This document shows, one piece after another, positions 13,619-49,382 of a stretch of 64,000 bases of DNA. Position 1 is the first letter of the stretch. Every line of letters begins with the position of its first letter. The DNA is taken from NCBI GenBank assembly GCA_009914755.4, contig CP068257.2, forward strand, positions 14,368,001 to 14,432,000, written 5' to 3'. The notes beneath the pieces are model-generated. The model did no database searches. It had not been told where the DNA came from and worked only from the letters and a program-made list of their open reading frames with translations. The DNA comes from the human T2T-CHM13v2.0 reference genome, Homo sapiens. The translations under genes were made by a program, and so were the position numbers.

Positions 13619-13959
<341 letters not shown>

Positions 13960-14424: not shown

Positions 14425-14749
<325 letters not shown>

Positions 14750-20280: not shown

Positions 20281-23200
20281 TTAATATCACTCAGCTTATT
20301 GGCCCCTGTACCTGGAGTCCAGAGACAGGAAGGGACTTGGGGCAGGCTCAAGCCGGCATTTCCACCTGTTTCTCTCTAACCCCTTTGGTTCCGCTCTTCT
20401 CCGTACGGACTTAGTTCTTTAGCAGAAGAGTTCCATATTGGTGGCAAAATGGTTGAAGCAATCCCAGGGGTCATCCTTATGTCATGACGAGCAAAGAAAG
20501 ATTATCTCCTAGCAGCTTTCTGTCCAGAGCAGTTAAACTTCATCCCCATAACTTTGCAAGAAACCGTCGCATCTTGCATCTTGTTCCAGACTGAATCGTG
20601 TGCATGTTCTAAATCTTGTCTCTGTGGTCAAGGAATATCACACACAGTCTGGTATAGGCTGATTTCTTGAACAACTCCTTGCTCAGTCGATGGTATGCTC
20701 CCAGGCCTGACAGGTGCAGCCCTGAAGTCTAGGTGATGCAATGAAAGGGGAGTTGAGTCTGGCCTCTGGTCACATCCAGGGCAAACACCCTGAGTTAACA
20801 TGCAATACCTACTGTGGCCCACTATCAGCCTGAACTTCTAGCTGCAACCCTTGCTGCTATATTGCCTGCACGTTAAACCCCGAATCACTCTGAACCAAGT
20901 ATTGTTCACTGAATCAACACAGTAGAATAAAGCCTGTAAACCCCTTTTTCTTCATCACCTCAATCTGGAATGTTTTCTACTTCCAGTGCATCAAAATCCT
21001 ATTGCCCCCTTTTGTCACAAAGTTGACTTTCTTTGTGATCTGAGACTGTATGACATAAAACAACAGATTGACCCTTTAGTTACAAAAAGTTAAGTAATTC
21101 ATTATTCATTGTCTTGGAAAGAGTGAAGATCATTTGAATCTGCAAGGATGGTATGAAATTGCTTGGTTTATTAATGTAAATTGAATTGAGATTTAATTTT
21201 GGTTGTTTCCTTGAGAAAGCAGAAAAATGGTTTTCCTACTAAATGAGTATTTCCTACTAAGTGAGGGAAATTTAGATTGGATCACGTGTGCCTAACATGG
21301 GCTGTTAAATGAGGAACACCTAGAGCTTTGAGAAATATACTGTGAAATGTTAGGATTTTTTTTTTTTTTTTTGAAATTTCACTTGACCGAGATATGGGGC
21401 CTGGGGAGAGTATAAGGAAAGGGCTGTGTCCTCTCCTAGAATGAATTAACTAGGAGTGGGTCACGGAGCTGTTTCTGGACATAGTGCAGTCCATGTTATT
21501 GTCTGATATTCAGATTATTCACAGTAATTTTTTTTAATTAATAACCTTCTTAACTATATATAATTTTTTATCCTTTCCTTCCTATACACACAACACCTAA
21601 TATGGTGTTCCACTTTTCCTTTTCCCCATATAATTGGACAAAACCACGTTGCCTCTGATTCTTCAATATTGGGTGAAATTCAGTCCTCCAATTTTACTCC
21701 AGGTTTGGAAGGACGAGAGACAGGAATCCAGTTTCAAGGGACTAAATGCAGGGCCGACCAAAGCCTCGGAGGCCCTCCCTCTATTAAGTATCTTCTCTGT
21801 TACCCAGTTCTCCAGCAGTTAACTGGTTAACTTGTTAAGATGTAAATCTAAAAGAATCCCTGGGAAAATGGAACAGTGGGAATCTAGGGTTCTAAAATTT
21901 GTATTAGCAAAGGGTCTAAAACTCCTTTGTTTACATTGTCTTAATTATTAAAGAATCCAATAGCATTAAACAGCTTGAGAGAATGTTTGCCCAGGGGAAG
22001 TCTATATTTTTGGCAAGCAATAAAATGTTGAATATAAATGAAAGCTATCCTGAATCCTGGCATATGTGTCTCTACTATGTTATTTGCTTCCAGATTTTTT
22101 CCAAATGGATACTTTTAAACATATTTATCAGAATACTAAACTTATGCATCTCATTTTTTAAATATGTCTTAAAATTTTCCCCTTAGTTGCTAGGGTCTTC
22201 ATAATTATTATTAAATATAATCAATTTTCCAAGAAACACTCTCCAGTTTTGTACTGCCTAAACAACCTTGCATTGTGATCTTTTCTCCTTTTGAATGTAT
22301 TTTCTTGGACTACATTTCCAGAAATAGAATTACTGAATAAATGGTTTGGAAATATTTACAGCTCATAATATGAAATGCCAAAGTTTTTCAAAAAAGAGTT
22401 TAAAACAATTTCTATCTCATAATATAGTATGTATATCAGTTTTGGTTATACTCCACTATTATGCATTACATTTAATTATACTTTCTTTAGTCTTTGTATT
22501 TTACTGTCCCACTTCCAGACTCAAAGAAGATCATAGCCTCCTGGAGAACTAGGAGAGTGTATTTATTACTTTTGTATTTATTTACTTCTCTATAACATTA
22601 GAACAAGGACTAACACATACTAAGTAAACATTAAATGTTTGTTGCATTGATTTGAATTAATCACGGGAATTCTTTTTGCAGTTACAGTAACTGCCAAATT
22701 ACTTCATGTTTTGGTGAATTACTTTATTATGATTTTAGCTTTTTTTCATTAACTGAGACTCGTGTTCCTCTTTTTAGTGCTTTTTTGTTTTTAATGAAAT
22801 GCTTCATGATTTTCTGTGTCATCCTTAAAAGAGGACATGTTTATTTTCTCTGGATTGTGCCAATTTTAAGATATTTTCTGCCAAAGCATGCATCATTTAA
22901 TTTAATTTTACTCTTTCAGTAAGCAATTATATGACTGAGTTTACAGTTAGTATTTGAGATACAATTGAGGTTAAACATTTTTAATGTGTGTTTATTAAAA
23001 TGATATTCTTTATTTAGTGAGTTGTTTGCTCTTGAGTTTGCCCATTTGAATCTGGAGTTTTATTTGTAAAATAATTATAATTAAATTTTAAACTTTTCCT
23101 ATTACATTTTGCTCTAGATGTTTTTTAGCTTTTTTCAATTTTTGTTTATGGCTAAAATTCAGAAATTTCAAAATTTTATAGTCTCATTTGTTTTGAGGGG

Positions 23201-24505: not shown

Positions 24506-26569
24506 GAGTGTTATTATTATTTTTTTAGTGTTATATTGTTATCCTGTCTCATTCATATATTTGATTACATGTAATAGCTCGATTTCTTGAAAATGATATG
24601 CATCTTCTTTTCCTGTAGGTATAAAATTTCCTTTCAGTATATGTTAACAGTTGCTTCAGGGTAGACACTATCATGACAAGTTATCATGAGAATGTCCTTC
24701 CATTGAACAATTGTGGGATTTTTGAGCTAAATTTGCTAGGTCATAATAGATTAGCCTATCATTCTATTCAATCTCATATACCATTTTTTAAAGATCTGCA
24801 ATGAAGCAGAAGGCAAAGTAGCTACAATGAAGTTAGAGGTTTGCTCAAATATTTCATGGCCTTAAGCCAAAATGCTTATGGGAACTCTGTCTGCTGCGGC
24901 AATGCCTACTGACTTCTTGCATTTCCTGAAGGGTGGTTAGAAAGGGATGCCCATCATTTCTTGTGGGTTGGTCAGATTTCCCAACACTTCCTACCTGATG
25001 TAGGTGTCTGGGTATGGTTGGGGTTTGGAGGAATGTTCTCATGATCTAACAGTCAGACTTTCACTTATTTCCCTTTGTGCCATCCAGCTTCTTGTCTTTT
25101 TTTTATCAGCGGTTTCTCTATGCTATGGCACAGCTTATCTAGAACTCTCAAAGCTGAAAAAATTTTGTTGCACAGACTAAAACAGGAAGCTGGGGTTCGA
25201 ATACTTTTGTTTCAGACTTTTTAAAGCAATCTTCCTGTTTTATGCCTTCACCTCCCCACATCCCTACTCCCTGTCCTCTGGAGATAGTGGTTACGTTCGA
25301 TTCCTGAGCCTTTCTGGAGTTTTATGGCACAAATGGACTTATTTATCCTGGCTTCTTTCCAAGAATTCACTTACCTATCTGTTACTATTATTCTATCCAT
25401 AAGTCAGCTTTCAAAATTTTATTGGTCTCATTAGAGTGCTTTTGTTTTCTCATCTTATTTGTCCTTGTAGGCTAATGATTTTATTTTTTTAAACTATCTG
25501 AGTGTCATTTTAGTCAGGTTTGGGGAGGGAGCAGAGGTGCACATGTCTGCCATGTTTTTTAGGAAGTCTCTGTCATGATATATTTTTATACTGTCTGCAG
25601 TGGACAGAGCCAATGAACTCCCTGGCATCAGTTTTTCTGTACTCATTGTTAACAAGACATCAGATTACCAACTATGTGATTTTGGAGGAGTAAGCTGTTA
25701 TTAACCCAAACTAATCATCATCATTGTAGGCGAAGAAGGTGAAATGTTTTCCAGCTCTTGGCTTTATTTTTCCTTGTGGAGGGACCTCAGGTGGAATAAT
25801 GCTCCCCACTTCTCACTCAGTCCTCCTTAAGGAAAAGGAATGACATCTGATTATGAGGTAGAAAAATAAAGTAAGTGTTCTCCAGTCAGTCCCATTTCTT
25901 CTTATTAGGTTTTCTCCCCTCTGCAAGGCAGCTTGGAATAAACTCAGTGGTACAGGCTTTGTCTCGATGAGGGTCTCCAGACATCTATAGTTGAAAAGTG
26001 AGCAAATTCATTTGGCCACGAGCTAAACCATGTTTCCTATCCAGCCAGTCAGTAAAAAGGCTTACATCTCCATAGGTCCATCCCCTGTGTTTTATTTTTC
26101 ACTTGTTTCTAAACTTGGGCAGGAAAGAAAAAGCTATTATATATCTACTTTCATCTCCACCCTTGAAACAAATAAACAAAACCCAGACCAGCAAGTTAAT
26201 CCTATTCCTCATGCAGCAATATTTGGTTTAACAGTGGACATGGAGTCTGGGTCTAAGCCATTAGTGCTTAACATTCCTCTGACAATGGCGATCGGTTCAG
26301 GGTTGGGCAGCATCTATGTTGCTTCTGCAAAGTAAAGACCATGACTTTCCTTTGATTTTTTAAACATCAAAACATGTTTATTCTTTCTCTGGATGGTTTT
26401 GTGAGAAGCCATTATACTGGGAAAAACTGCAGCAATTTTGCACCCATGACAAACCCAGCAAGCACATGAAGGACAAATTCTCCTTGGAGGAAGAGCAGAG
26501 GATGGAGACAGAACCCGGATAGAATTCCATGTGAAGTCTACACTACTCCTAGACTTTTCATTTGTGTGG

Positions 26570-26947
26570 TGTATTAGTCTGTTCTATGCTGTTAATAAAG
26601 ACACATCCAAGACTGGGCAGTTTATAACGGAAAGAGGTTTAATTAACTCACAGCTCTGCAGGGCTGGGGCAGCCTCAGGAAACTTACAATCATGGTGGAA
26701 AGGGAAGCAAACATGTCCTTCTTCACATGGTGGCAGCAAGGAGAAGAATGAGGGCCCAGCAAAGGGGGAAGCCCTGTATAAAACCATCATCTCTCATGAG
26801 AACTAATTCACTATCACAAGAACAAGACAGGGGAAACCACCCCCATGATTCAATTTTCTCTACCTGGTCCCTCCCGCAACATGTGGGGATTATGAGAACT
26901 ACAATTCAAGATGAGATTTGGGTGGGGACACAGCCAAACAATATCAT
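26570..26947 (-). mobile_element. THE1/MST-family MaLR solo LTR, antisense
   Basis: The sequence tgtattagtctgttctatgctgttaataaagacacatccaagactgggcagtttataacggaaagaggtttaattaactcacagctctgcagggctggggcagcctcaggaaacttacaatcatggtggaaag...ccacccccatgattcaatt...ccctcccgcaacatgtggggattatgagaactacaattcaagatgagatttgggtggggacacagccaaacaatatca matches, almost end to end, the reverse complement of THE1B (TGATATGGTTTGGCTGTGTCCCCACCCAAATCTCATCTTGAATTGTAGC...TATTAGCAGTGTGAGAACGGACTAATACA). Confidence 0.8.
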
Positions 26948-27035
26948 GTGGGTTAACACATTTCTTTCTATGTTTAAACTCACTTGAAGTGGGTTTCTTA
27001 CCATTAAGAGCATCTAATCACTGCATTATTGAGTT

Positions 27036-27290
27036 TGCTTTTCTAGGATTTCTGTAAAATTGTCACATTTTAATTACAAATGAGTTTCCAAACAGTGTTT
27101 CTCAGAACATAAGCGTTATGCCTAGTCTGCTCAAGCAAAATCTCTGCTCTTGGGTTCAGATTTACTTTCACAAGTCAAAATTGGTTTCATCCTGGATTAA
27201 GTTCACCTAGCCTTAAGACAGGATACATGGTAGGCCACATGGCATGAATGGCAACAACGAATCAGAGGAATTAGGAGACTTACTTCATTG
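27036..27290. repeat. Left arm of a large inverted repeat (palindromic structure)
   Basis: The arm runs gcttttctaggatttctgtaaaattgtcacattttaattacaaatgagtttccaaacagtgtttctcagaacataagcgttatgcctagtctgctcaagcaaaatctctgctcttgggttcagatttactttcacaagtcaaaattggtttcatcctggattaagttcacctagccttaagacaggatacatggtaggccacatggcatgaatggcaacaacgaatcagaggaattaggagacttacttcattg. Its reverse complement recurs at 27621-27876 with roughly 88% identity. Confidence 0.75.
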
Positions 27291-27620
27291 CTAAAATGGA
27301 CATAGTCTCAGGAGATGAGACAAGATGAGCATGAGCCACCTCAGTTCATGGAAGCTGCATGCTCTGGTGGCCCTGTCAGCTTTTACACCTTGTAAGATTC
27401 ATAACATTCTCCTCATATTCACATGACTGGCCCTCATTCTCCAGTACAGTAGAATTTCACTGATACTTGTTACTCAGTAAACAATTTCAGCAATGAGGAT
27501 CAAATGTATGGTCTGGAATGTAGTAACAACAGATGAATTCTCTATAATCTAGGGTCTAGTCTGCTCCTGTGACTCCTTTAATTAATATGCAAGAAAGATT
27601 TTAAGAATACCAAATCCTAT

Positions 27621-27876
27621 CAATGAAGTAAGTCTCTTAATTCCTCTGATTTGTTGTTGCCATTCATGCAATGTGGCCTATCATGTATCCTGTCTTAAAG
27701 CTAAGTAAACTTAGTCCAGGCTGAAACCTATTTTGACTTGTAAAAGTCAATCTGAACTCAAGAGCAGAGACTCTGTTTGAGCAGACTAGGCATGGCACTA
27801 ATGTTCTGGGAAACACTGATCGGAAACTCAACTTGTAAGTAAAAATGTAACAAGTCTACAAAAATCCTAGAAAAGC
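27621..27876. repeat. Right arm of the inverted repeat, reverse complement of 27036-27290
   Basis: The arm runs caatgaagtaagtctcttaattcctctgatttgttgttgccattcatgcaatgtggcctatcatgtatcctgtcttaaagctaagtaaacttagtccaggctgaaacctattttgacttgtaaaagtcaatctgaactcaagagcagagactctgtttgagcagactaggcatggcactaatgttctgggaaacactgatcggaaactcaacttgtaagtaaaaatgtaacaagtctacaaaaatcctagaaaagc. Confidence 0.75.
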
Positions 27877-28047
27877 TAACCCAAATCCTCAGCTATCTCT
27901 GAGGCTAACGGTTAAATTATGGACCTACTTTTAACTCTATTCTAAATTAGTATCCTGTGAATATGGACAACAAGAACAATAATATATGTCAGTTATTTAA
28001 GTGACACCAATTAAAGTGCTTTGCATATTATTGTGTAATAAATAATT

Positions 28048-37084: not shown

Positions 37085-39275
37085 ACCTTAGACAAGCAAA
37101 ACAAAAATATGTTGATAAAGACTCAAATCTAAAACCTCAATCTATGAAACTACTACAAGAAAACATTGGGGAAAATCTCCAGGGCATTGGTCTGGGCAAA
37201 GATTTCTTGAGCAATACCCCACAAACACAGACAACCAAAGCAAAAATGGACAAACAGGATTACATCAAGTTTAAAAGCTTTTGCACAGCAAAGAAAACAA
37301 TCAACAAACTGAAGAGACAACCTACAGAGTGGGATAAAATATTTGCAAGTTGCCCATCTAGCAAAGGACTAATGACCAGAACATATAAGGAGCTCAAACA
37401 ACTCTATAGGAAAAAATCTAAAAATTCAATCAAAAAGTGGACAAAAAATTTGAACAGACATTTCTCAAAAGAAGACATACAAATGGCAAACAGGCGTATG
37501 AAAAGGTGCTCAACATCATTGATAATCAGAGAAATGCAAATCAGTACTACAATGAGACATTATCTCACCCCGTTAATATGGCTAATATCCAAAAGGCAAC
37601 AACAAATGCTAATATCCAAAAGGCAATAACAAACGCTATTATCCAAAAGGTAATAACAAACGCTTATATCCAAAAGGCAATAACAAACGCTAATATCCAA
37701 AAGGCAATAACAAACGCTAATATCCAAAAGGTAATAACAAACGCTTATACCCAAAAGGCAATAACAAACGCTAATATCCAAAAGGCAATAACAAACGCTA
37801 ATATCCAAAAGGTAATAACAAAAGCTTATATCCAAAAGGCAATTACAAACGCTAATATCCAAAAGGCAGTAACAAACGCTTATATCCAAAAGGCAATAAC
37901 AAATGCTAATATCCAAAAGGCAATAACAAACGCTTATATCCAAAAGGCAGTAACAAACGCTTATATCCAAAAGGCAATAACAAATGCTAATATCCAAAAG
38001 GTAATAACAAACGCTTATATCCAAAAGGCAATAACAAACGCTAATATCCAAAAGGCAACAACAAACGCTTATATCCAAAAGGCAATAACAAACGCTAATA
38101 TCCAAAAGGTAATAACAAACACTTATATCCAAAAGGCAGTAACAAACGCTAATATCCAAAAGGCAATAACAAACGCTTATATCCAAAAGGCAATAACAAA
38201 CGCTTATATCCAAAAGGCAGTAACAAATGCCTGTATCCAAAAGGTAATAACAAATGCTTATATTCAAAAGGCAATAACAAACGCTTATATCCAAAAGGCA
38301 ATAACAAACGCTTGTATCCAAAAGGCAATAACACATGCTTATATCCAAAAGACAATAACAAACGCTTATATCCAAAAGGCAATAACAAATGCCTGTATCC
38401 AAAAGGTAATAACAAACGCTTATATCCAAAAGGTAATAACAAATACTTGTGAGGATGTGGAGGAAAGAAAACCTTTGTACACTGTTGGTGAGAATGTAAA
38501 TTAGTACAACCACTATTGAGAAGAGTTTGGAGGTTCCTCAACAAATCTAAAAATTGAGCTACCATATAATTCAGCAATCCCACTGCTGGGTATATATCCA
38601 AAAGAAAGGAAATCAGTATATCGAAGAGACACTGTACTCCTACATTTGTTGCAGCACTGTTTACAATAGCTAAGATTTGGAGGCAACCTAAGTGTCCATC
38701 AACCGATACATGGATAAAAAAAATGTGGTACATATACACAGTGGAGTACTATTTAGCCATAAAAAAGAATGAGATCCAGTCATTTGCAACAATAACATGG
38801 ATGGAACTGGAGATCATTATGTTAAGTAAAAAAAGCCAGGCATAGAAAGACAAACATTGCATGTTCTCACTTATTTATGGGATCTAAAAAAGCAATTGAA
38901 TTCATGGACATAGAGAGTAGAAGGATGGTTACCAAAGGGTGGCAAAGCTACTGGGGGTTGGTATAGTTAATAGCTACAGAAAAGAAGTACTTAGAAAGAA
39001 TGAATAAGGCCTACTATTTGATAGCATAATAGGTTGACGATAGTCAATTACGACTTAATTTTACATTTTATAATAACTTAAAGACTAAAATTGGATTGTT
39101 CTTAACTCAAAGAATAAATGCTTGTGGGATGTATTATTACCCCAATGCTATTATTACCATTTTCCATGATGTGCTTATTTCACATTCCATACCTGTATCA
39201 AACATCTCATGTACCCTATAAACATATACATCTACTCTGTACCCACAAAAATTTAAAAAATATGTATTGAAAAAA
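37085..39275 (+). mobile_element. Older L1 (L1PB/L1MA-like) 3' fragment, sense, carrying an internal 27-bp VNTR
   Basis: ORF 37144-37629 translates to an L1 ORF2p C-terminal region: ...LQENIGENLQGIGLGKDFLSNTPQ...[25 protein letters not shown]...[46 protein letters not shown]. Downstream of the VNTR the L1 resumes (cttgtgaggatgtggaggaaagaaaacctttgtacactgttggtgagaatgtaaattagtacaaccactattgagaagagtttggaggttcctcaa...aatcccactgctgggtatatatccaaaag...gtggtacatatacacagtggagtactatttagccataaaaaagaatgagatc) and runs through the 3' UTR to an A-rich end near 39275. Confidence 0.8.
37578..38447. repeat. Minisatellite / VNTR: about 32 tandem copies of a 27-bp unit (consensus gctAatatccaaaaggcaataacaaac), derived from L1 ORF2 sequence
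   Basis: The period is 27 bp, measured by the recurrence of gctaatatcc. Variant units show a/t at one position (gctaatatcc / gcttatatcc) and c/t (ggcaataac / ggtaataac / ggcagtaac). All six frames stay largely open across the array, giving the 9-aa repeats ITNANIQKA etc. in the ORF track. The unit matches the L1 ORF2 segment GCTATAATCAAAAAGACAGACAATAACAAGTG at the homologous position. Confidence 0.92.
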
Positions 39276-46640: not shown

Positions 46641-47250
46641 TTTTTTAAAGTTTATATTAGATTGTAACATATATACAGTAGACAAAATCTTAAATGTGCA
46701 TCTTGATAAAAACTCACACATGTACACACTTGTGTAACTGCCACCCAGATTCAGATATAAAATCTGGGTTTCCTGAACCCAAAAGATTCTCTTGTGCTCC
46801 TTTTTAGTTAACATTCTTTTTCCCAACCAAGGAAACACTATTCTGACCTCTATCACTATACAGGAGTTATACTTGTTCTTAACTGTCATATAAATGGAAT
46901 CATATGGTATATATAGTTTTGTGATTGACTCCTTCGGCTCAACATTTGTGTTGTTTAACATGGAAATAGTTCACCCATTTTTATTATGTGTGCAATTATT
47001 TTGCCCATTCTATCATTGATGCACTTTTGGGCTATTTCCCAAATATTCTTATGCATGTCTTTTGGTAGAAATACCGTTCTGTTTTGCTTGACTGTATACC
47101 TTGAGGTGGAATTATTGGATCACTGGGCGTATATATATTCAGATTTATTTGATCTTGGCAAAGAGTGGGTGTACCAATTTATAGCCAAATTAGCAAAGTA
47201 CAAGAGGCTTGATTGATTCACTTTATTGAAAACACTTGATATTGTCACGG
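46641..47250 (-). mobile_element. Old L1 (L1M/L1PB-like) 3' UTR plus ORF2 C-terminus, antisense; this is the 3' piece of an element that continues at 48925-49500
   Basis: The 3' UTR portion, tttttttaaagtttatattagattgtaacatatatacagtagacaaaatcttaaatgtgcatcttgataaaaactcacacatgtacacacttgtgtaactgccacccagattcagatataaaatctgggtttcc, is the reverse complement of an L1M-type 3' UTR (tttaaagtgtacaattcagtgg...gttgtgcaaccatcacc). The next portion, ataaatggaatcatatggtatatatagttttgtgattgactccttcggctcaacat...ctatcattgatgcacttttgggctatttcc...tgtataccttgaggtggaattattggatcactgggcgtatatatattcagatttatttgatcttggcaaagagtgggtgtaccaatttatagcc, parallels the antisense L1 ORF2 consensus (ataaatggaatcatacagtat...ggagtggaattgctgggtcatatggtagttctattttt...ccatagtggctgtaccaatttacattcc). 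Confidence 0.7.
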
Positions 47251-47423
47251 GCTTCCTGGGTTGTTGCTTTGCCAGCCAGACACCTCTGCGGCTGGTGGCA
47301 CCTTTGCCCAAATTTTGCTTGAGCCCACTGGACTCATTCTGCCCACTTAGCCTGGTAGGCTGTGCTTGGCTTTCGCTATTGGCCGAGATTCCATGTCTGC
47401 CAAGGGCGAGCCAGGCACAGAGA

Positions 47424-47480
47424 AGTGAGTGAGTGAGTACATGAGTACATGAGTGAGTACATGAGTGAGTGAGTGAATGC
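47424..47480. repeat. (GAGT)n / (GAGTACAT)n simple repeat
   Basis: The repeat gtgagtgagtgagtacatgagtacatgagtgagtacatgagtgagtgagtgaatg is visible directly. Confidence 0.75.
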
Positions 47481-47919
47481 AGGGTCCAGCCACTACATTC
47501 AGCTAGGCATGTGAGCTGCTGTGGGGTGGGCAGCACCAGGCGCTGGCATGGGCTCTGGTTCCCTGCTGCAGCTGGACCAGGTGTACTGCAAGAGGCTTCC
47601 ACTGCAGGCACCAGGGAACATGGTAGCACCTGGAAGCTTGGAGACAGCAGGAACCACAGAGCCCCAAATAGGGTGATATAGCCCTGGCTCAGGGACCTCC
47701 TAAGTCTGGGATCCCTGAAAGGCCTCAACTCTTCCCTTTCCTCTCCTTCTCATCACCTGTAACATGGCAAGTGAGGGGCATGTTTCAGCCCTGCTTGTGT
47801 TACAGCCTTTTCAGTCCTGCCATTTGGTGGATCCTGAGTTCTTGTCCTACATCCTGGAAGAATGAGGTACACAGACAACTGGAGGGTGAACAAGGCAAAG
47901 ATGTGCTTTATTCGAGCAA

Positions 47920-48195
47920 CAGTACAGCTCTCAGGAGATCCAAAGTGGGTATCTCCTTTCCACAGGCAGGTTGGCCTGATGAGTGCAGCCCTCAGTGGAG
48001 AGGAGACCCAGAATGGGTAGCTCCTATCTGCGCTCAGGTTATCCTGACATCTCTCCAGCCCTCAGTGGAGAGGAGACCTGGAGTGGGTGGCTCCTATCCC
48101 TAGGCAGGTTGTTCCAACGTCTCTGCAGCCCTCAACAGAGAGGAAACCTGGACTGGGTAGCTCCTATCTGCAGGCAGGCCATCCCATTGTTTGCC
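47920..48195. repeat. Minisatellite: about 4 copies of a 70-bp unit
   Basis: The motif cagccctcagtggagaggagacc recurs at 47986, 48056 and 48126, giving a 70-bp period. The units read cagccctcagtggagaggagacccagaatgggtagctcctatctgcgctcaggttatcctgacatctctc / cagccctcagtggagaggagacctggagtgggtggctcctatccctaggcaggttgttccaacgtctctg / cagccctcaacagagaggaaacctggactgggtagctcctatctgcaggcaggccatcccattgtttg. A diverged partial copy lies upstream. Confidence 0.8.
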
Positions 48196-48924
48196 TGAGT
48201 CTGGCTGAGTCCAGAGTTTTTATGGGCTTCAGAGGGGAGGAAGTGCATGTTGATTGGTTCATGGGTGGCCATGGGCACACCTGGAGAAAGCACCGTAAGT
48301 TTCCACTCTGGTCTGTGGAACCGGCAGCTTAGCCCCCAGGCTTCAGGCCATCTCTGGCGTGAAGGTGGGGTTTTAATGGGGATCTTCCTGTTTCTGCCCA
48401 GGAACCTGTCTGCCTCCTGCTACCATTCATGATGCCCAGGCTGTTTGTGCCCTCGCCAAGTTGCCCTAAGCCCCACCTCGGCCTCCTTCCCATGCTCCTC
48501 AGTGCCCAAAGTTCAGAGGAGGCCTAGGGGGCTGGGTGCTGGCATGTCAGTACCGCCCTAAGCGTGTACACGCCTGGCTGGGTCATGACAGTGCCCAGGT
48601 TTGGCCACAACTTTGCTCTGAAATCAGAGTGGGTGCCAGGAGTGGGGAGATGCCAGGCAGTGGGAGCAGGCACTTCCAAGCCTGCAGGGGCAGGGGGGCT
48701 TCCTGGGCCCCAGAAGCACAGGATGCCTAGGTCTGAAGCCGTGGTTATGTGGCTGCAGCCGTGCCCAGGTGGGCGGGCTCTCACCACACCAACTTGGGGG
48801 AGAAACTCCCACCTGTTCCCAGCTCCCACCAGCTCTGCTCGAGCACGCGGCCCCAGCCGTGCCTTTCCCCGCTGCAGCCAGCATCTTTGCAGCAGCAGCT
48901 TCATATGGGCCACTGCTGCTATCA

Positions 48925-49382
<458 letters not shown>

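What the first reader, a model, noticed from the sequence alone, without database searches (positions are those of the whole stretch)
27036..27876. About 840-bp palindromic structure: 255-bp inverted arms at about 88% identity around a 330-bp loop
The left arm (27036-27290) and right arm (27621-27876) are reverse complements over about 255 bp, with scattered substitutions and small indels, so the duplication is old. No Alu, L1 or LTR consensus explains the sequence. Parts of the outer ends (cagtgtttctcagaacat / atgttctgggaaacactg) resemble hAT-type terminal inverted repeats (CAGTG...), but the inverted similarity extends about 50 bp beyond them (gcttttctaggatttctgta... / ...tacaaaaatcctagaaaagc), and no 8-bp direct TSD is evident. 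Three explanations remain open: an ancient palindromic non-autonomous DNA transposon (MER-type), a foldback element, or a locally generated inverted duplication such as replication template switching. Long perfect-ish palindromes can form hairpins or cruciforms and act as fragile or recombinogenic sites.
Basis: seen in the sequence. Interest (0 to 1): 0.5.

Follow-up and report, generated by a model that had tools for sequence, protein, structure and literature searches.

The report
Old local inverted duplication, 856 bp
A 265-bp stretch of primate non-coding DNA sits twice in opposite orientation around a 324-bp spacer, most likely a neutral, decaying relic of a local copying accident about 30-45 million years ago rather than a jumping gene or a fragile site.

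Summary
The inverted repeat is real. The arms are 27029-27293 and 27618-27884, with 233/265 matches (87.9%), two 1-bp indels and a 324-bp spacer (blastn E=5e-90; RNA fold z=-32). It is the only close inverted repeat in the window that is not an Alu pair. The transposon reading fails where it could be tested:
- No target-site duplication brackets the 856 bp, although an older neighbouring solo THE1-type LTR keeps a perfect 5-bp one.
- The outer ends carry no canonical terminus.
- The hAT-like CAGTG/CACTG lies 64 bp inside the arms, and its flanking 8-mers match only 4/8.
- There is no second copy in 64 kb.

MER6, a known element of similar size, has only 24-bp terminal repeats. A 9-bp direct repeat, CCAAATCCT, brackets the right arm alone (about 1% by chance per arm). 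This suggests the right arm was inserted as a reverse-complement copy of the left arm. Mismatches are evenly spread, 21 transitions to 11 transversions, with no bias toward G:U pairs, so decay looks neutral. Divergence per arm (0.061) equals that of AluS copies in the same window. A 324-bp spacer and 12% mismatch argue against fragility. Genome-wide copy number, Dfam annotation and primate orthologues could not be tested with these tools. The finding is ordinary and of low interest.

The parts
27029..27293 (+). Left arm of the inverted repeat (265 bp). It is the inferred source copy, since no direct repeat brackets it.
   Evidence: Alignment; the repeat finder; no flanking direct repeat of 6 bp or more.
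27294..27617 (.). Spacer (324 bp). It is unique within the window, has no terminal inverted repeats of its own, and has no ORF longer than 34 aa.
27618..27884 (-). Right arm (267 bp), the reverse complement of the left arm at 87.9% identity. It is the inferred inserted copy.
27610..27618 (+). Left copy of the 9-bp direct repeat CCAAATCCT, at the spacer/right-arm junction.
   Evidence: An 8-mer at such junctions occurs at 1.1% of random sites in this window.
27881..27889 (+). Right copy of the 9-bp direct repeat CCAAATCCT. Its first 4 bp (CCAA) overlap the last bases of arm homology, which may be junction microhomology.
27093..27110 (+). hAT-like motif CAGTGTTTCTCAGAACAT, whose partner ATGTTCTGGGAAACACTG ends at 27818. 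It lies 64 bp inside the arm, so it is not a terminus.
   Evidence: Sequence. The flanking 8-mers TTTCCAAA and ATCGGAAA match at 4 of 8 positions, and no partner end with a matching duplication was found within 5-6 kb.

Best explanation
This is a locus-specific inverted duplication in a catarrhine primate genome, probably human. [quoted passage not shown] The likely route is templated insertion or template switching during replication or break repair. Since then both arms have decayed neutrally. Today it is inert in DNA, because the spacer is too long and the arms too mismatched for hairpin or cruciform formation. If the region is transcribed, it would fold into a long imperfect double-stranded RNA of about 265 bp. 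Shown here: the structure, its uniqueness within 64 kb, the absence of transposon hallmarks, the 9-bp repeat, and the neutral substitution pattern. Inferred: the direction of copying, the repair mechanism, the age, and any RNA consequence.
For: 1. No target-site duplication of any size brackets the 856 bp. The adjacent solo THE1-type LTR (26570-26946, minus strand) is about 12% diverged from a THE1B consensus recalled from memory, yet it still has a perfect 5-bp duplication CCACA. A duplication made when the arms were identical should therefore still be visible.
2. A 9-bp direct repeat brackets the right arm only. An 8-mer in that position occurs at 1.1% of random sites in this window.
3. There is no other copy of arm or spacer in 64 kb, even at word size 7.
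4. The outer ends (TTGAG.../...CCCAA) are not canonical transposon termini, and the CAGTG motif is internal.
5. The arms have no internal sub-repeats.
6. Mismatches are evenly spread across five equal bins (8, 7, 7, 6, 4), with 21 transitions to 11 transversions and 3 at CpG sites. G:U-compatible changes number 9 on one strand and 12 on the other, so there is no selection for an RNA stem.
7. Non-CpG distance per arm is 0.061, equal to AluS copies in the same window (0.03-0.10). That places the event at or after the time DNA transposons went silent in anthropoids, about 40 Mya as cited in PMC6887750.
Against: Genome-wide copy number and Dfam/Repbase annotation could not be checked, so a low-copy transposon family with long terminal repeats is not excluded. 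The 9-bp repeat could be chance; after looking at three junction pairs, p is about 0.03. In the four-point template-switch survey, events in which the return point precedes the departure point (which would make such a direct duplication) were not observed, and typical events span tens of bp, not 265. The exact mechanism is therefore not the classic short template switch. The motif CAGTGTTTCTCAGAAC does resemble hAT-Charlie termini, from my memory of those consensus sequences. The age estimate assumes identical arms at birth and no gene conversion between them.
Confidence: 0.55

Rival explanations
1. A non-autonomous DNA transposon with unusually long (about 265-bp) terminal inverted repeats. 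It would be a MER-type, MULE/Ricksha-like or foldback-like element inserted as one 856-bp unit.
For: Long terminal arms around a short unique core are the anatomy of Mutator-like and palindromic miniature elements; Mu has terminal repeats of about 215 bp and 9-bp duplications (abstract of PMC2774946). Divergence per arm of about 6% overlaps the youngest primate DNA transposon families, from my own knowledge of Pace and Feschotte 2007. A hAT-like CAGTG motif lies within the arms.
Against: No 2-, 4-, 8- or 9-bp duplication brackets the unit, although an older LTR 78 bp away keeps its own. The termini are not canonical, and CAGTG lies 64 bp inside the arm. There is no second copy in the window. 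MER6, the known family of similar size at 865 bp, has only 24-bp terminal repeats, a TA duplication and about 19% divergence. The 9-bp direct repeat brackets one arm, not the whole element.
Confidence: 0.2
2. Two independent insertions of the same interspersed repeat of about 265 bp in opposite orientation. The inverted Alu pair at 13678-13959 / 14427-14707 in this window is an example of this geometry.
For: The window holds an Alu pair with the same geometry: 88-90% identity and a 467-bp spacer. Both arms end at the same homologous positions, as two full-length copies would. The right arm has its own 9-bp flanking repeat.
Against: The left arm has no flanking repeat of 6 bp or more. The arms have no poly-A tail, no TG...CA ends and no terminal inverted repeats of their own. 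They show no similarity to Alu, or to MIR or L2 consensus sequences recalled from memory. Apart from arm against arm, blastn of the element against the whole window, which includes the L1 and LTR stretches, gave only short chance-level matches. No known element class combines a 9-bp duplication with these ends.
Confidence: 0.08
3. A selected hairpin-RNA locus, such as a precursor of small RNAs or an editing or regulatory structure, maintained because of its stem.
For: The strand folds into a stem of about 265 bp with z=-32.
Against: No Rfam family matches, even at E up to 10. All 32 differences disrupt or weaken pairing. The transitions split 9 to 12 between the strands for G:U compatibility, as expected without selection. 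Divergence equals that of neutral Alu copies nearby.
Confidence: 0.03

Closest known systems
Inverted repeats created by template switching or templated insertion during replication or repair (four-point model of Loytynoja and Goldman 2017, PMC5453318; FoSTeS/MMBIR, PMC2621351)
   Same: A nearby segment is copied in reverse complement and placed close to its source, creating a new hairpin-capable inverted repeat without any transposase. There may be microhomology (CCAA) at one junction.
   Different: The copied fragment is 265 bp and lies 324 bp from its source, whereas the surveyed short events span tens of bp. The 9-bp direct duplication implies a return point upstream of the departure point, a type not seen in that survey. 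A staggered-break fill-in is therefore a better fit than a simple replication slip.
MER6 / MER6A (Tc1-mariner miniature elements of primates)
   Same: Similar total length (865 bp against 856 bp), non-coding, and present in primates.
   Different: MER6 has 24-bp terminal repeats, a TA duplication and about 19% divergence from its consensus. Here the arms are 265 bp, there is no TA...TA, and each arm is only about 6% diverged.
Mutator-like elements (Mu; human Ricksha)
   Same: Terminal inverted repeats of a few hundred bp. The 9 bp is the Mutator duplication length.
   Different: The 9-bp repeat brackets one arm, not the element. No dispersed copies could be shown. Ricksha copies are old, from my own knowledge, so their arms would be far less than 88% alike.
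hAT-Charlie miniature elements (MER1 group, e.g. MER5A, MER20)
   Same: The CAGTGTTTCTCAGAAC.../...GTTCTGGGAAACACTG motifs resemble hAT-Charlie termini, from my memory of those consensus sequences.
   Different: The motifs are 64 bp inside the inverted similarity, the adjoining 8-mers match only 4 of 8, and no matching partner end exists nearby.
Inverted Alu pairs
   Same: The geometry and identity match the Alu pair at 13.7-14.7 kb in this window. The capacity to form long double-stranded RNA if transcribed is also the same.
   Different: The arms are not Alu and lack poly-A tails and individual duplications on both copies.

Membership tests
DNA transposon with terminal inverted repeats (hAT, Tc1-mariner, piggyBac, MULE) | Target-site duplication directly flanking both termini (8 bp, TA, TTAA or 9 bp) | tested here: not met
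   No direct repeat of 6 bp or more occurs at the outer junctions. The flanks are TA on the left and AT on the right. A neighbouring older LTR retains its 5-bp duplication.
DNA transposon with terminal inverted repeats (hAT, Tc1-mariner, piggyBac, MULE) | Inverted repeats that end exactly at the element termini with the superfamily's terminal motif | tested here: inconclusive
   The inverted similarity is terminal, but the ends read TTGAG.../...CCCAA. The only canonical-looking motif (CAGTG) is 64 bp internal.
DNA transposon with terminal inverted repeats (hAT, Tc1-mariner, piggyBac, MULE) | Multiple dispersed copies sharing the same ends, or a match to a Dfam/Repbase consensus | not testable with these tools
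   There is no other copy in 64 kb. No primate genome or Dfam library is available. Scans of metagenome, prokaryotic-genome and viral collections and of the protein database returned nothing, which is uninformative for a primate repeat.
MER6 | 865-bp element with 24-bp terminal repeats, a TA duplication and a V-SINE-derived core | tested here: not met
   The description is from PMC6887750. Here the arms are 265 bp and there is no TA...TA. The consensus sequence itself was not available for alignment.
Foldback element | Long inverted arms built of short tandem sub-repeats, in multiple copies | tested here: not met
   No direct-repeat family occurs inside the arms; one search found only one chance 20-nt pair outside. 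Copy number is untestable.
Template-switch (four-point) inverted repeat | The new fragment is a reverse-complement copy of adjacent sequence | tested here: met
   Right arm against left arm gives 87.9% identity over 265 bp, 324 bp apart.
Template-switch (four-point) inverted repeat | Switch-point order in which point 4 does not precede point 1, at a scale of tens of bp | tested here: not met
   The 9-bp direct duplication implies the order 3-2-4-1, and the fragment is 265 bp.
Template-switch (four-point) inverted repeat | An outgroup genome shows the ancestral state without the inverted copy | not testable with these tools
   No primate genomes are accessible.
Structured RNA gene (miRNA or hairpin RNA) | Match to a curated family, or substitutions that preserve pairing | tested here: not met
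   Rfam has nothing near a gathering score; the best hit was 17.7 bits at E of about 4. G:U-compatible transitions split 9 to 12 by strand, and there are no compensatory pairs.

The most novel reading that the evidence does not exclude
The structure is a member of an undescribed low-copy family of long-terminal-repeat (Mutator-like or foldback-like) DNA transposons that was still moving in anthropoid primates about 35 million years ago, at or after the accepted extinction of DNA transposons. On this reading the 9-bp repeat reflects an aberrant one-ended insertion.
Probability: 0.05. Interest if true: 0.5.

Novelty: new member of a known kind. Interest (0 to 1): 0.15.

Why it matters
It matters little on its own. 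It is a clean, datable example of a mid-sized (265-bp) inverted duplication with a possible junction signature. Its scale falls between the tens-of-bp template switches catalogued in ape genomes and the kilobase-to-megabase rearrangements of genomic disorders. If an outgroup genome confirmed the empty site, it would document that such events can duplicate a few target bases.

Tried and rejected
- **Searches for relatives elsewhere.** I translated the longest stop-free frame of both arms (alignment A1). I scanned JGI metagenome contigs, GTDB genome contigs and the 5.8-billion-protein database. I also ran exact DNA scans with a 21-base arm-consensus pattern in the metagenome, genome and viral collections. 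All were empty. These collections hold almost no primate DNA, so the result says nothing about copy number.
- **Rfam.** The gathering-threshold scan of the window and the E<=10 scan of the region gave nothing relevant.
- **Arms as old MIR or L2 fragments.** This would have proved a local duplication. Alignment to consensus sequences recalled from memory scored at shuffle level.
- **The repeat as internal sequence of the neighbouring THE1 element.** Rejected: the LTR is solo, with its own perfect 5-bp duplication.
- **A hAT element at 27093-27818 nested in a short palindrome.** Rejected: the flanking 8-mers match 4 of 8 and pairing continues through the junction.
- **The spacer as a transposon inserted at the centre of a perfect palindrome.** The junctions read ...TA|...|TA..., but the spacer has no terminal inverted repeats.
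- **L1-mediated retrocopy of the left arm.** Rejected: there is no poly-A, and the target does not resemble TT/AAAA (reasoned from the sequence).
- **Finding a host gene in order to fetch primate orthologues.** ORFs of 75 aa or more are Alu-, L1- or LTR-derived. The only GC-rich block (47.2-48.9 kb) is CpG-poor and looks LTR-like. No exon was found, so this route was dropped.

Full report
**Observation**

The reported palindromic structure is real. A gapped local alignment of the left side against the reverse complement of the right side gives arms at 27029-27293 (265 bp) and 27618-27884 (267 bp). There are 233 matches, 32 mismatches and two single-base indels, which is 87.9% identity. The spacer is 324 bp. 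The repeat finder reports the same structure as two ungapped blocks. blastn gives E=5e-90 for arm against arm. The 856-nt strand folds at -442 kcal/mol against -206 +/- 7 for shuffles, z=-32. The inverted similarity stops at these ends: the flanks score 16 against a shuffle mean of 17 +/- 2. A scan of the whole window for close inverted repeats of 80 nt or more finds only this one and three pairings among Alu elements.

**Context**

The window is primate DNA:
- It has twelve Alu copies of the Y, S and J types.
- It has L1 ORF2 fragments.
- It has a full-length U6-like sequence.
- It has a solo THE1-type LTR at 26570-26946 on the minus strand. This LTR aligns end to end with a THE1B consensus I recalled from memory, at 87.6% identity. 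It is flanked by a perfect 5-bp duplication, CCACA.

That LTR ends 78 bp to the left of the inverted repeat and is an independent insertion, so the repeat is not internal retroviral sequence. No exon or CpG island was found in the window.

**Is it a transposon?**

Every hallmark that could be tested here is missing.
- **Target-site duplication.** No direct repeat of 6 bp or more brackets the 856 bp. The immediate flanks are TA on the left and AT on the right. This absence is informative. The arms differ by only 12%, so a duplication made at the same time should be largely intact. The older LTR next door still shows its own.
- **Termini.** The outer ends read TTGAG.../...CCCAA. Pairing continues straight through it. 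The adjoining 8-mers (TTTCCAAA and ATCGGAAA) match at 4 of 8 positions, and no partner end with a matching duplication exists within 5-6 kb.
- **Sub-repeats.** The arms contain none, so it is not foldback-like.
- **Other copies.** No other copy of arm or spacer occurs in the window, even at word size 7.
- **MER6.** This is the known primate element of nearly the same length (865 bp). It has 24-bp terminal repeats, TA duplications and about 19% divergence (PMC6887750), so it does not explain this anatomy.

Genome-wide copy number and the Dfam library are the decisive checks, and they are not available here. Six scans of metagenomic, prokaryotic and viral collections and of the protein database were empty. 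That is expected for primate DNA and is uninformative.

**What it most likely is**

A 9-bp direct repeat, CCAAATCCT, sits at 27610-27618 and 27881-27889, so it brackets the right arm alone. An 8-mer in such a position occurs at 1.1% of random sites of this window. Allowing for the three junction pairs examined, p is about 0.03. Its first four bases (CCAA) coincide with the last bases of arm homology.

The simplest reading has three parts. First, the left arm is the source. Second, a reverse-complement copy of it was inserted 324 bp downstream. Third, repair either filled in a staggered break or re-annealed through CCAA, which duplicated a few target bases.

This belongs to the known class of template-switch or templated-insertion events that create new inverted repeats (PMC5453318). 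It differs from the catalogued short events in two ways. The fragment is 265 bp rather than tens of bp. The duplication also implies a return point upstream of the departure point, a type not seen in that survey. The exact mechanism is therefore inferred, not shown.

**Evolutionary state**

- The 32 mismatches are evenly spread, at 8, 7, 7, 6 and 4 across five equal bins.
- There are 21 transitions and 11 transversions, and 3 mismatches lie at CpG sites.
- Transitions that would keep a G:U pair number 9 on the plus-strand RNA and 12 on the minus-strand RNA.

This is what neutral decay gives, with no selection for a stem on either strand.

The non-CpG Kimura distance is 0.122 between the arms, or 0.061 per arm. 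In the same window the Alu copies give:

| Alu type | Distance from consensus |
|---|---|
| AluY | 0.027-0.060 |
| AluS | 0.031-0.155 (most 0.03-0.10) |
| AluJo | 0.13 |

These values are, using consensus sequences recalled from memory. The duplication therefore dates to roughly the AluS era, about 30-45 million years ago. That assumes the arms were identical at birth and have not undergone gene conversion. This is at or after the time when DNA transposons fell silent in anthropoids, about 40 Mya as cited in PMC6887750.

**Consequences**

The fragile-site idea is not supported. Risk rises with arm length and identity and falls with spacer length. Inverted Alus with a 12-bp spacer stall replication in primate cells, but with a 52-bp spacer they no longer do so in eukaryotic cells. 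Inverted Ty elements of 6 kb with a 280-bp spacer are stable in wild-type yeast (PMC7999016). Here the spacer is 324 bp and the arms are 12% mismatched. If the region is transcribed, the strand would form a long imperfect double-stranded RNA, comparable to an inverted Alu pair. Whether it is transcribed cannot be told from the window. No Rfam family matches.

**Verdict**

This is a real but ordinary structure: most likely a neutral, decaying, locus-specific inverted duplication (confidence about 0.55).

| Rival explanation | Confidence |
|---|---|
| Low-copy transposon with long terminal repeats | about 0.2 |
| Two independent insertions of an unrecognised 265-bp repeat | about 0.08 |
| Selected hairpin RNA | about 0.03 |

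Interest is low. The question can be closed with RepeatMasker/Dfam, a BLAST search against a complete human genome, and a look at primate alignments for the predicted empty site GAATACCAAATCCTCAGCTATC.

Noticed in passing
window 26570-26946 (minus strand); duplications at 26565-26569 and 26947-26951: Solo THE1-type MaLR LTR. It aligns over the full length of a THE1B consensus recalled from memory at 87.6% identity, and is flanked by a perfect 5-bp target-site duplication (CCACA on the minus strand). I used it as an internal control for how well such duplications survive here.
   Followed up: yes
window 22788-22889 (minus strand): Full-length match to U6 spliceosomal RNA (Rfam RF00026, 50.5 bits against a gathering score of 44, model positions 1-105). 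It is most likely one of the many dispersed U6 copies or pseudogenes.
   Followed up: no
window 37581-38443: Tandem array of 32 copies of a 27-bp unit (GCTTATATCCAAAAGGCAATAACAAAC) at 90% matches. It lies directly after an L1 ORF2-like ORF (37144-37629) and creates artificial ORFs of 317-355 aa on both strands. CpG observed/expected is 0.88 there, the highest in the window.
   Followed up: partly
window 13678-13959 (minus) and 14427-14707 (plus): Inverted pair of AluY-like elements at 88-90% identity with a 467-bp spacer. The geometry is the same as the finding, but the pair was made by two independent retrotranspositions.
   Followed up: partly
window 47200-48950: GC-rich (56-57%) but CpG-poor (observed/expected 0.12-0.24) block. 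It holds three to four imperfect repeats of about 60 bp (...cctcagtggagaggagacc...gggtagctcctatc...) and a (GAGT/GAGTACAT)n run at 47425-47478. It looks like an LTR rather than a promoter or exon, but I did not classify it.
   Followed up: no
window 27887-27904: Small hairpin-capable palindrome, CCTCAG-CTATCT-CTGAGG, immediately right of the inverted repeat and overlapping the right copy of the 9-bp direct repeat. GCTAAC also recurs at 27875-27880 and 27904-27909. These could be remnants of the junction or chance.
   Followed up: no
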